A DNA stretch of 64,000 nucleotides from NCBI RefSeq assembly GCF_964194025.1, contig NC_134468.1:40920001-40984000 (forward strand), read 5' to 3'. Below, one piece after another: positions 45,001 through 48,000 of the stretch (its first letter is position 1; the number at the start of each line of letters is the position of its first letter). The DNA is from Convolutriloba macropyga. Its lineage: Eukaryota. Made by a program: the position numbers.

Positions 45001-48000
45001 TGCTAGATATGGCTAAAAACCTTAAGAGACTAAAGGTCAAACAAATATTCAAACAAAAGTGTAATCTGTTGAATAGGATACCCAAAATAACAGCTCAGAA
45101 AATTATCACCAAGGTTTTGAATATAACCACCAGTTTAATTCCAACTATAATAGTTCGGCTGAGTATATCGTGGCAACAATAGTGAATGACAAATACAATG
45201 CAATCAGTACACGACAATGACAAACAGAAATGAAAATTTGAAAATCTAATCCATTTGGGTAGCGCGTGAAGCATTGTGGGCAACTTTATTGGCAGTGCTG
45301 ATTGTGAACAAATCTACATTGGCTTGTTGGACTGATTGCTTTGGCAACTTTTAACTAAAGGATTTCTCAATTGAACCATTTACAAACCAAGGGTCCGATC
45401 GTACTCCAGCCGGTAGTTAAATTCAGAATGCCTAGAGTCCATTGTCTTACCCAAGGCCTCAACCATCTTCAAGGTTGAGACCAATTTAGAAAACTAAGAC
45501 CGACATTGGTCAAAGCAACTTCACATTCTCCAATTAATTCCATTAACAATAATTATAATCAATGCCAGTAAACATTAAGGCAGACCAGTTAAGGGCTCCT
45601 TTTACAGCCGTAAAGTATAAAGAGTTAGAACTACTTATTTCTACGCGCGAAGTAGGCTCACCTATATCTCTCAGACTAACCGACTCAGTAAAACACTGAA
45701 GATATATTTCAATTATAACGGTGGTTTTAAAGAATTACACCGGAGTCAGAGATGCGCACATCGTGCAACTACTCTATTAGACTGACTATAGTTATTGGAG
45801 TTCTCTCTATATATAAGAGAATAGTCTCTTCTCAGTCTCTGATTAGATGAATTTATATATCCAGTATTTCTACTGCTACAACATCAGAGCCGCTAAACGT
45901 TTCCATAATTAGTCATTCATGTTTGAGGGCGCAAAACGCAAACAGTGCAATCAACGTTTCATAAAATGTTTTGTCCTGAGCATCATTGAGGGCGAAGGTT
46001 TCCATCAAACCTGCGGGACTGATTAAAATACGAGTTTTCCAAATTGTTCAACAAATCAAATGTTGAAAATTTGACGAATTGTTTGGCTCAATGCTTCATC
46101 TCATCTCTTTAAGAGCTGTTACTGTTAAAAAAGACAAAAGGATCAAAACAGCACTAAATTTTAAAAATCTGAACAAATTGATTGAAGAAATATGAAACAA
46201 CCGCCAAATGTGGCTAAGCTGGTTGATTAAACCTCTCATTCCTTAAAAGATTCGGCCTTTAAAAAAAACTACTTATGTTTCGACAATTGATCTCATATAT
46301 GTCCACATTCAATAAAACCGCCTACAGCCGATTAAACAAATATGCCTACAGTCGATAGGCCTACAGCCGATTAGGCATCTTGAAATTAGCATCTTATAGA
46401 ACGTCTCTTCCATCATTTGTATCTCAATTAACATTTTTCAACTATTCGAGCTAGATAACGTCTAAGACTCGAACTACAGAAAACGGTAAAAGAACAATCT
46501 TTATTCAAGATAACAATACGTATAGTACTCTTTATTTTTCAACAATAAGCTCTTATTAGATCACACGTAACAATCCTCAGTTCGTTCGTACACATAAGAT
46601 ATCTAAAGTAACACTGGCGGCAAAAAAAGCTAGACAGGACCTATTTGGCCTTGCTTTGGCCTTAAAGTTAAACCATTCAATGCGTTTTGTTAGTCTAATA
46701 ATTTTATATCTAAGTCATCTTAGTCTAAATCGGGCTAGTTTAGCTGAAAACCGCTCTCAAACGGTTCGTTGCTCAAGGCACATGTATTAGAATACGGATT
46801 TTGCTTCGTACGGTTCGACATGGTTGGGGTTCGAACCACCGGTCTTTAGATTGAGAGTACAGTACTATACTAACTGCGCTATGGTTACTTGTTTAGTTAC
46901 AAATACAATTTAAACTTAAACTCGTTCACATTTCTCGCTTAAATTTCTTGCTCGCTTACATTTGTGTTCACAACATCCTCCGGCCTCGAAAGTGGTGTAG
47001 CAAAAACTTGAATTAATTTAACAACGGGTCTGGCATAGTTACCGGGCTTAGTCCTTATTTCGGCGGAACGGGCAAAGCCGTCATCACCAAGGCGAAGTTT
47101 TTCGATACGTCCTAGAGGAAAATGGCCTCGGGGAGATGAGTCTTCGGCAAGTCATACCAGATCTCCTGTTTTTAGCTCATCTGAGGCAGATTTTGACCAT
47201 TTACTGCGGCGATTCAGAGCCGGTACGTACTCATCCAACCATCGTTTCCAAATTGAGTCGACATATTATTGGAAAAGGACGTACCGCTTTCTGTGATAAA
47301 AGTCTTCACTTTCAACTAATGAACCTAGGACGGAGCATACTAGGACGGAACCCGAGAAGGAAATGATTTGGAGTAATTGTGTCCATTTCTGGTGGATCAT
47401 TGCTTACAGAATTGAGCGGCCGGTTGTTGAGTGTCATTTCAGCTAGACAGAATGTTGTTTGAAGCACCTCGTCAGTCAATCGGGGGTTACCGAGAACAGC
47501 GTAGAATGTCCGGTTGACACTCCTTACATGAGTTCCCACGAACCACCATGATGAGGGGAAGATGGAGGGTTAAAAAGCCACTTAATACCTTTCTGTGACA
47601 TTTTGCTTGCAATCGTTCGCTGGTTTAAAGCTTTAAAACAAGCTGACAACTCTTTCTCTGCACCATTAAAAATTGTTCCATGGTCTGACCATAGAACTTG
47701 CGGTGTTCCTATTCGTGCGATGAATATTTCTATCCCCATAACACAAGAGCTGGTCTCCATAGAATTTACTACCTCAATATGGAGAGCTCGATTTGTAAGG
47801 AACGTTAAAAGGAACCCCCAGTGCTTCTCAATTGAACGCTGGACGGCGACATAGAACGGTCCGAAGTAACCTATCCCTGAGATGAAGAAAGGGGGATTAC
47901 CATGGGACAGACGCCCGACTGGTAGATCCGCCATCATTGGCTTCACTGTGTCTGCACTACGCTTCCGACATAAAATACAATTGTGCTTGATTGACGTCAA

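What the first reader, a model, noticed from the sequence alone, without database searches (positions are those of the whole stretch)
46816..46888. tRNA-like Pol III cassette between integrase and the 3' LTR
Seen: consensus A and B boxes at tRNA spacing on the element's sense strand, with T-runs downstream (T4 at 46747-46750, T7 at 46622-46628, the latter 8 nt before the LTR). Established: Cassandra TRIMs carry a 5S-derived Pol III promoter, and TFIIIC-bound B boxes act as insulators. Inference: an element-borne Pol III unit giving a ~140- or ~265-nt RNA, an insulator, or just an inserted SINE head.
Basis: partly seen in the sequence, partly recalled or inferred. Interest (0 to 1): 0.65.

Follow-up and report, generated by a model that had tools for sequence, protein, structure and literature searches.

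The report
tRNA-derived promoter remnant inside a retrotransposon
A 76-base stretch just after the last gene of a decayed BEL/Pao retrotransposon keeps the two promoter boxes of a tRNA gene but none of its folding, so it is most likely a SINE-type promoter head carried as a passenger, and no sibling copy could be examined to show whether the whole family carries it.

Summary
On the minus strand, which is the element's sense strand, a perfect B box (46837-46827) lies 44 nt after an A-box-like 12-mer (46881-46870).

- **Register:** counted from 46888 without indels, 20 of 21 recalled tRNA-conserved positions are met. The next best of 127,298 windows reaches 16.
- **Chance:** about 1e-5 expected per window.
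- **No tRNA fold:** only 9 of 21 cloverleaf pairs form, against a background mean of 8.04. ARAGORN and Rfam find no tRNA.
- **Selective retention:** uniform decay of a tRNA reproduces this pattern in at most 24 of 40,000 simulations, so the boxes were kept selectively, as in SINE heads or Helenus TRIMs.

The host element is a 9.8-kb BEL/Pao retrotransposon (46443-56290) with 171-nt LTRs, a GTTGA target duplication and a broken pol. The closest named relatives are from the acoel Convolutriloba macropyga. The cassette starts 51 nt after the pol stop. It has no flanking duplication of 7 nt or more, no tail, and no second copy in the window.

Whether sibling elements carry it could not be tested, because no eukaryotic DNA collection was available. 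The verdict is a real tRNA-derived Pol III-type promoter module whose function and family membership are unproven. Interest is modest.

The parts
46813..46888 (-). tRNA-derived cassette, 76 nt in canonical tRNA register (position 1 = 46888). The nominal anticodon position reads CTC.
   Evidence: 20 of 21 recalled conserved tRNA positions are met and only G18 is missed; 9 of 21 cloverleaf pairs form. ARAGORN finds 0 genes. Rfam finds no tRNA hit.
46870..46881 (-). A-box-like 12-mer TAGCGCAGTTAG (tRNA positions 8-19).
   Evidence: Position 18 is A instead of G.
46827..46837 (-). B box GGTTCGAACCC (tRNA positions 52-62), a perfect match to the recalled consensus.
   Evidence: 1 match in the window, 0.12 expected.
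46747..46768 (-). Short hairpin running into the first T4 run (46750-46747); candidate Pol III stop about 145 nt after the inferred start.
   Evidence: Sequence; fold (8-bp terminal hairpin; whole-RNA z-score -0.73, not unusual).
46622..46628 (-). T7 run ending 8 nt before the 3' LTR; second candidate Pol III stop. It occupies the place where a polypurine tract is expected.
46614..46938 (-). 3' untranslated region of the element (325 nt). It holds the cassette.
   Evidence: Bounds. No other copy in the window.
46443..46613 (-). 3' LTR, 171 nt.
   Evidence: 4 mismatches of 171 against the 5' LTR, read from the alignment.
46438..46442 (.). Target-site duplication GTTGA, 3' side.
46939..52439 (-). 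gag-pol coding region of a BEL/Pao element, broken. Domain matches mapped through relatives: RVT_1 49894-49511, Peptidase_A17 model 49321-48827, Integrase_H2C2 48105-47953, rve 47853-47554, DUF5641 47289-47008.
   Evidence: Pfam Peptidase_A17 at 1.8e-37 on the 377-aa ORF. tblastn of 120 relatives: all 120 hit here and none hit elsewhere. In the part aligned to P0001 there are about 10 in-frame stops and two reading frames are used; three frames are used across the part aligned to P0022.
53366..56060 (.). Tandem arrays in the 5' leader: a 27-nt unit x 34.7 (53366-54283) and a 41/82-nt unit x 37 (54550-56060).
56103..56116 (-). Primer-binding-site-like stretch that starts with TGG, 3 nt after the 5' LTR.
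   Evidence: No complementarity to the cassette beyond one 7-mer.
56120..56290 (-). 5' LTR, 171 nt.
56291..56295 (.). Target-site duplication GTTGA, 5' side.

Best explanation
The 76-nt stretch is a real derivative of a tRNA gene that has kept only the internal Pol III promoter, an A box and a B box in exact tRNA register. It has lost every helix. This is the state seen in the heads of tRNA-derived SINEs and in the tRNA-like pieces of Helenus TRIMs.

It lies in sense orientation in the 325-nt 3' UTR of a decayed BEL/Pao LTR retrotransposon, 51 nt after the pol stop.

Inferred: it most likely reached this locus as part of the element's RNA genome. That would mean it was picked up earlier in the lineage, either from a co-packaged Pol III transcript or from an older SINE insertion in a progenitor. 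A SINE jumping into this copy after integration is less likely.

Inferred mechanism as DNA: TFIIIC would recognise the perfect B box, Pol III would start about 46890-46900, and it would stop at the T4 run (RNA of about 145 nt) or at the T7 run (about 270 nt). Such an RNA lacks R, U5 and the primer-binding site, so it could not itself be copied by the LTR route. I therefore read the module as a passenger or a local chromatin or transcription feature, not as part of the element's replication cycle.

Shown: the motifs, the register, the lack of fold and the position. Inferred: the origin, any transcription, and any effect.
For: - Conserved positions: 20 of 21 are met without indels; the next best of 127,298 background windows reaches 16.
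- Chance: 1e-5 expected per window and 0.16-0.7 per Gb. The B box is unique in the window.
- Helices: 9 of 21 pairs form, against a background mean of 8.04, and 41.5% of windows do as well.
- Decay simulation: uniform decay from an ideal tRNA gives at most 9 pairs together with at least 20 conserved positions in at most 24 of 40,000 simulations at any rate tried. The boxes were therefore retained selectively.
- Insertion marks: no direct repeat of 7 nt or more brackets the cassette, and only four chance-level 6-mers were found. No A-rich or simple-repeat tail follows it. The LTRs differ at only 4 of 171 positions, so the marks of a post-integration insertion should still be visible.
- Literature: Helenus LTRs likewise conserve boxes A and B and mostly fail as tRNAs (PMC10886601, section 15).
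Against: - No sibling copy could be examined, so carriage by the lineage rests only on the missing duplication and tail.
- A short (under 7 nt) target duplication, or a later deletion of the tail, would erase that argument.
- The list of conserved tRNA positions is recalled. The cassette was picked for its boxes, so part of the 20-of-21 score is ascertainment.
- No evidence of transcription or TFIIIC binding exists.
- The putative RNAs fold no better than shuffles: z = -0.22 (86 nt), -0.73 (147 nt) and -1.09 (194 nt).
- The copy is dead, so any activity here is incidental.
Confidence: 0.5

Rival explanations
1. Family-borne functional unit. This BEL/Pao family keeps a Pol III type-2 promoter in its 3' UTR as a conserved feature, making a small RNA or serving as a TFIIIC-bound boundary.
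For: - Sense orientation, a perfect B box and ordered T4 and T7 stops.
- Selective retention of the boxes.
- No insertion marks.
- Precedent in a retrovirus: the abstract starts listed for PMC12498455 and PMC4992882 say the bovine leukemia virus miRNA cluster is transcribed by Pol III from internal type-2 promoters (listing only).
Against: - No sibling copies were seen.
- No stable hairpin or other structure lies downstream.
- The selective retention could have happened in a SINE lineage before capture.
- A T4 and a T7 run are unremarkable in a 35% GC sequence.
- The insulator role is untestable here.
Confidence: 0.2
2. Ordinary nested insertion. A tRNA-derived SINE inserted into this copy, or into its immediate parent locus, after integration, and its tail and target duplication were later lost or are too short to see.
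For: - SINE heads are the commonest source of promoter-only tRNA-like sequence.
- Untranslated parts of dead elements tolerate insertions.
- Kojima proposes SINE insertion as the origin of the tRNA-like pieces in TRIMs (PMC10886601, section 19).
Against: - No flanking repeat of 7 nt or more, and no tail, although the LTRs are 97.7% identical.
- Target-primed insertion usually truncates the head, not the tail (recalled).
- No second copy of the 121-nt region anywhere in the 64 kb: the best other hit is 15 nt at E = 0.84.
Confidence: 0.2
3. Chance. The boxes arose by accident in AT-rich non-coding DNA.
For: - The helices are exactly at background level.
- No tRNA finder reports anything.
- At relaxed ARAGORN thresholds only mutually inconsistent calls appear.
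- The feature was chosen post hoc from a large scan.
Against: - The joint expectation is 0.16-0.7 per Gb of genome.
- 20 of 21 conserved positions are met, including positions outside the two boxes (32, 33, 37, 48), and they fall in exact register.
Confidence: 0.07
4. A recently captured or host tRNA gene or pseudogene that is simply decaying.
For: - Exact 76-nt tRNA geometry with a 5-nt variable region.
- T33 and a purine at position 37 flank a CTC triplet.
Against: - Uniform decay deep enough to bring the pairs to 9 of 21 almost never leaves 20 of 21 conserved positions: at most 24 of 40,000 simulations.
- The first T run lies 65 nt beyond position 73, not just after the 3' end.
- ARAGORN and Rfam are negative.
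Confidence: 0.03

Closest known systems
Heads of tRNA-derived SINEs (SINE2)
   Same: A tRNA-derived stretch of about 70-76 nt that keeps boxes A and B at tRNA spacing while the cloverleaf is degraded. It acts as an internal Pol III promoter.
   Different: No body or tail recognisable as SINE, no target duplication, and no other copy in the window. Dispersal in the genome is untested.
Helenus TRIMs (TRIMp3; Kojima 2024, PMC10886601; abstract and sections 5, 13, 15 and 19 read)
   Same: A tRNA-like piece with conserved boxes A and B inside an LTR retroelement, mostly unable to encode a tRNA, with target duplications of 4-5 bp.
   Different: Helenus carries the piece in both LTRs, is 311-1263 bp long and is non-coding. 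Here the piece is single and internal, in the 3' UTR of a 9.8-kb gag-pol element, and the LTRs hold no B box. Section 13 lists six animal phyla, none of them Xenacoelomorpha. The paper's supplementary tables could not be seen.
Cassandra TRIMs (search listing and abstract starts only)
   Same: [quoted passage not shown]
   Different: Cassandra's piece is 5S-derived, lies in the LTRs, and is found in plants. Rfam finds no 5S match in the window.
cqgypsy_1 of Culex quinquefasciatus (PMC3286476; passages seen through 'find' only)
   Same: A coding LTR retrotransposon with tRNA-like sequence inside its boundaries.
   Different: There, two tandem tRNA copies with cloverleaf folds and terminal CCA sit at the 5' LTR/primer-binding-site boundary. 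Here there is one copy without a fold at the 3' end, with no link to the primer site.
Pol III-transcribed miRNA cluster of bovine leukemia virus (search listing and abstract starts only)
   Same: A retroelement carrying internal type-2 Pol III promoters, which lets it make small RNAs without cutting its genomic RNA.
   Different: Those units encode pre-miRNA hairpins. No stable hairpin follows the cassette here. This is a functional analogy only, not homology.

Membership tests
Functional tRNA gene | Cloverleaf with four helices | tested here: not met
   9 of 21 pairs form (acceptor 2/7, D 2/4, anticodon 3/5, T 2/5), against a background mean of 8.04. ARAGORN finds 0 genes. Rfam tRNA is not reported at E<=10 on 601 or 96 bases.
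Functional tRNA gene | Internal A and B boxes at positions 8-19 and 52-62 | tested here: met
Functional tRNA gene | T-run terminator shortly after the 3' end | tested here: not met
   The first run of four or more T is at 46750-46747, 65 nt beyond position 73.
tRNA-derived SINE (SINE2) | tRNA-related head with Pol III boxes | tested here: met
tRNA-derived SINE (SINE2) | Body plus A-rich, simple-repeat or LINE-related tail | tested here: not met
   No tail is seen in 46812-46614. There is no similarity to anything else in the window. LINE partners could not be searched.
tRNA-derived SINE (SINE2) | Flanking target-site duplication | tested here: not met
   No bracketing repeat of 7 nt or more; only four 6-mers were found.
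tRNA-derived SINE (SINE2) | Many dispersed copies in the genome | not testable with these tools
   No eukaryotic DNA collection was available, and there are 0 further copies in this window.
Helenus / TRIMp3 | tRNA-like sequence inside the LTRs | tested here: not met
   The only B box of the window is internal. The LTRs are 46443-46613 and 56120-56290.
Helenus / TRIMp3 | Short non-coding element (under about 1.3 kb) | tested here: not met
   The element is 9,848 bp and has gag-pol homology.
BEL/Pao LTR retrotransposon (the host element) | Pao-type pol with the order RT, Peptidase_A17-model region, integrase, DUF5641 | tested here: met
   Pfam PF05380 at 1.8e-37. The relative P0001 carries PF05380, rve and DUF5641, and these map collinearly onto the window.
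BEL/Pao LTR retrotransposon (the host element) | Two LTRs flanked by a short target duplication | tested here: met
   171-nt LTRs with 4 mismatches and a GTTGA duplication.
BEL/Pao LTR retrotransposon (the host element) | Polypurine tract next to the 3' LTR | tested here: not met
   The last 20 nt before the LTR are pyrimidine-rich (T7 followed by GCCGCCAG).
TFIIIC-only site / tDNA-type insulator | TFIIIC occupancy and boundary activity | not testable with these tools
   Only the B-box motif is shown. The insulator role of such sites is recalled, and one search gave listings only.

The most novel reading that the evidence does not exclude
An acoel BEL/Pao family carries, as a conserved part of its 3' UTR directly after pol, its own type-2 Pol III promoter. 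That would make it an autonomous LTR retrotransposon with an element-borne Pol III unit. It would be functionally comparable to the Pol III small-RNA cluster of bovine leukemia virus, and it would be a plausible ancestral state from which tRNA-bearing miniature elements of the Helenus type could arise.
Probability: 0.15. Interest if true: 0.65.

Novelty: new member of a known kind. Interest (0 to 1): 0.3.

Why it matters
If siblings carry the cassette, it would be the first coding LTR retrotransposon described with an internal tRNA-derived Pol III promoter. My literature searches found tRNA-like pieces only in two settings: in the LTRs of miniature elements (PMC10886601) and at a primer-binding site (PMC3286476). 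It would then bear on how TRIMp3 elements arise and on whether retroelements use TFIIIC sites. If it is a stray SINE head, it is an ordinary nested fragment, useful only as a lead to an undescribed SINE family in acoels.

Tried and rejected
1. **tRNA gene.** ARAGORN at default finds 0 genes. At 90% thresholds it also finds 0. At 80-70% thresholds, with introns allowed, or in mitochondrial mode it gives mutually inconsistent calls. Rfam gives 0 hits at gathering score. At E<=10 there is only a snoRNA-family hit at E = 9.8, 13.7 bits against a 70-bit threshold, which I take as chance. On 96 bases there are 0 hits.
2. **tRNA-like 3'-end processing signal.** Rejected, because there is no cloverleaf.
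3. **Element-encoded primer.** The leader after the 5' LTR shares only one 7-mer of complementarity with the 3' UTR. Rejected.
4. **Read-through copy of the primer tRNA.** That would lie at the primer site in antisense orientation, as in the Culex case. This one is sense and at the 3' end. Rejected.
5. **tRNA-promoter-plus-hairpin small-RNA unit.** No stable hairpin follows: z = -0.73 and -1.09.
6. **Second LTR pair or nested element.** Self-BLAST of 44000-58500 finds only the one LTR pair outside the tandem arrays.
7. **Sibling information.**
   - No relative's alignment runs past 46942 into the UTR. All 120 relatives were examined; the 40 that reach furthest were listed.
   - A 34-aa ORF over the B box was too short for the search for homologous proteins. 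I did not send the only 40-aa open stretch, because it has no usable start codon and success was very unlikely.
8. **Frame-wise Pfam scan of the UTR/integrase region.** I used ORFs and tblastn instead.
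Full report
**What is at the coordinates**

The element's sense strand is the minus strand. Read on that strand, 46888-46813 holds an A-box-like 12-mer, TAGCGCAGTTAG, at 46881-46870. It also holds a perfect B box, GGTTCGAACCC, at 46837-46827.

- The B box is the only match to GGTTCGANNCC on either strand of the 64 kb. 0.12 matches are expected, and 11 of 100 shuffles had at least one.
- A script scan for an A-box core 25-60 nt upstream of a relaxed B box found 1 pair on the minus strand and 0 on the plus strand.
- The first run of four or more T after the B box is T4 at 46750-46747.
- A T7 run lies at 46628-46622 and ends 8 nt before the LTR.

The box consensus motifs, the conserved-position list used below, and the rules for Pol III start and stop are recalled knowledge, not tool output.

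**Is it more than chance, and is it a tRNA?**

I counted from 46888 as tRNA position 1, with no insertion or deletion. On that count, 20 of 21 conserved tRNA positions are met and only G18 is missed. Among 127,298 background 76-mers of the window (both strands), the mean is 7.33, and apart from this site none exceeds 16.

From base composition, the joint expectation of the met A-box part plus the B box is as follows:

| Condition | Expected count |
|---|---|
| Per window, 5 spacings allowed | 1e-5 |
| Per Gb, 5 spacings allowed | 0.16 |
| Per Gb, 21 spacings allowed or 45% GC | about 0.7 |

So the stretch is almost certainly tRNA-derived. Yet the four helices are gone:

- 9 of 21 pairs form (acceptor 2/7, D 2/4, anticodon 3/5, T 2/5). 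The background mean is 8.04, and 41.5% of windows do as well.
- ARAGORN finds no gene in the window. Relaxed thresholds give nothing at 90% and only mutually inconsistent calls at 80-70%.
- Rfam gives nothing at gathering score. There is no tRNA hit at E<=10 on 601 bases, where the only hit is a chance-level snoRNA match (E = 9.8, 13.7 bits against a 70-bit threshold). There is none on 96 bases either.
- The 86-nt RNA folds no better than shuffles, z = -0.22.

**Promoter-only retention**

I simulated uniform decay of ideal tRNA-shaped sequences. The combination of at most 9 pairs with at least 20 conserved positions appeared in at most 24 of 40,000 runs at any rate tried, from 0.1 to 0.8 changes per site.

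The pattern therefore needs unequal constraint: the boxes were kept while the helices were free to change. That is the state of SINE heads. It is also the state of the tRNA-like pieces of Helenus TRIMs, where boxes A and B are conserved and most copies fail as tRNAs (PMC10886601, section 15).

One caveat applies. The site was chosen for its boxes, so part of this contrast is ascertainment. Pure chance would also give background-level helices, but the chance expectation above makes that unlikely.

**The surroundings**

The cassette sits in a complete but decayed LTR retrotransposon on the minus strand, spanning 46443-56290 (9,848 bp).

- The LTRs are 171 nt (46443-46613 and 56120-56290). They differ at 4 of 171 positions and are flanked by a GTTGA duplication at 46438-46442 and 56291-56295.
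- Self-BLAST of 44000-58500 finds no other LTR pair.
- The 377-aa ORF at 48569-49702 matches Pfam Peptidase_A17, the Pao retrotransposon model, at 1.8e-37.
- A protein search with that ORF returned 144 relatives at E<=1e-10, of which 120 were listed. The best is P0001, an unnamed ENA record of 1383 aa with 89% identity, carrying Peptidase_A17, rve and DUF5641.
- The closest named relatives are uncharacterised proteins of the acoel Convolutriloba macropyga, for example P0010 at 90% identity. The window is therefore acoel-like, not human.
- All 120 listed relatives align to the minus strand inside the element and nowhere else in the window. Coding homology spans 46942-52439.
- Domain matches map collinearly: RVT_1 at 49894-49511, the A17 model at 49321-48827, the integrase zinc domain at 48105-47953, rve at 47853-47554, and DUF5641 at 47289-47008.
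- The pol frame ends with a stop at 46941-46939. Relatives' projected ends mostly fall between 46912 and 46996 (40 of 120 listed).
- The gene is broken. There are about 10 in-frame stops and two reading frames in the part aligned to P0001, and three frames across the part aligned to P0022 (10 of 120 proteins used).

The cassette thus begins 51 nt after the pol stop, in a 325-nt 3' UTR. No spliced gene model was involved or built.

**Inserted later, or carried by the element?**

The decisive test is a comparison of sibling copies with dispersed copies, and I could not run it. The only open genome collection holds bacteria and archaea. The one ORF over the B box was too short for a protein search.

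Indirect evidence is as follows:

- No direct repeat of 7 nt or more brackets the cassette; only four 6-mers were found.
- No A-rich or simple-repeat tail follows it.
- Nothing else in the window resembles the 121-nt region or the 910 bases from the 3' LTR up to 47523. The best other hits are 15-21 nt at E >= 0.59.

The LTRs are still 97.7% identical, so the marks of an insertion made after integration should survive. I therefore lean to the cassette having arrived with the element's RNA genome. This is inference from absence and would fail if the duplication was very short or the tail was deleted.

**How it would work**

Inferred: TFIIIC binds the B box, TFIIIB is placed upstream, and Pol III starts near 46890-46900. 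It ends at the T4 run (about 145 nt) or reads on to the T7 run (about 270 nt).

- The 147-nt RNA ends in an 8-bp hairpin but is not unusually stable, z = -0.73.
- The 194-nt downstream part has z = -1.09 and no long hairpin. A promoter-plus-hairpin small-RNA unit is therefore not supported.
- Such an RNA lacks R, U5 and the primer site, so it is not a template for the LTR replication route.
- The leader after the 5' LTR shows no meaningful complementarity to the cassette, so it is not an element-encoded primer.

An insulator or boundary role cannot be tested with sequence alone.

**Comparison with the known**

- **SINE2 heads:** closest in kind. The head is met; tail, duplication and dispersal are not met or not testable.
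- **Helenus TRIMs** (PMC10886601; abstract and sections 5, 13, 15, 19 read): closest among LTR elements. They carry the piece in the LTRs, are 311-1263 bp and are non-coding. That paper's screen kept only TRIMs under 1000 bp and lists six animal phyla without Xenacoelomorpha. Its supplementary tables could not be seen.
- **Cassandra:** 5S-derived, in the LTRs, and from plants (listings only).
- **Culex gypsy element cqgypsy_1:** carries two folded, CCA-ended tRNA copies at the primer-binding site (PMC3286476, passages only).
- **Bovine leukemia virus:** its miRNA cluster is transcribed from internal type-2 Pol III promoters (abstract starts only). This is a functional analogy only.

Searches returned no paper describing a coding LTR retrotransposon with an internal tRNA-derived promoter in its 3' UTR. 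These full-text searches cover open-access papers only.

**Verdict**

The cassette is a real tRNA-derived Pol III-type promoter module that has kept the promoter alone. It sits in sense orientation in the 3' UTR of a dead BEL/Pao copy.

- The choice between family-borne unit, insulator and SINE head stays open, with a mild lean to carriage by the lineage.

Interest is modest (0.3) unless sibling copies prove conservation.

Noticed in passing
window 53366-56060: About 2.6 kb of tandem arrays fill the leader between the primer-binding site and gag. One has a 27-nt unit x 34.7 (53366-54283) and the other a 41/82-nt unit x 37 (54550-56060). This is unusually long for a 5' leader.
   Followed up: partly
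window 46614-46633: No polypurine tract precedes the 3' LTR. The sense strand reads T7 followed by GCCGCCAG. On the opposite strand the same bases start with TGG one base after the LTR and look like a primer-binding site. I take this as coincidence, because a T7 run would not occur in a tRNA, but it is unexplained.
   Followed up: partly
window 46443-46613 and 56120-56290: The LTRs are very short for a BEL/Pao element (171 nt). They start with TG but end with TA instead of CA.
   Followed up: no
window 46939-52439: pol holds about 10 in-frame stops, although the LTRs differ at only 4 of 171 positions. The copy was probably already defective when it integrated. This is inference.
   Followed up: no
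window 46931-46963: A 16-17-nt tandem duplication (88% identical) spans the end of pol. The closest relative, P0001, stops aligning here with 10 residues left.
   Followed up: no
window 20041-25265 approx.: A direct duplication with a spacing of 2924-2925 nt at 98-100% identity. Examples are 21677-21976 against 24601-24900 and 20041-20340 against 22966-23265. It has no long ORFs.
   Followed up: no
window 59908-60107: A run of 200 N.
   Followed up: no
window 1-64000: Outside the retrotransposon the window has no ORF of 130 aa or more, no tRNA gene and no Rfam family at gathering score. Overall GC is about 35%.
   Followed up: no
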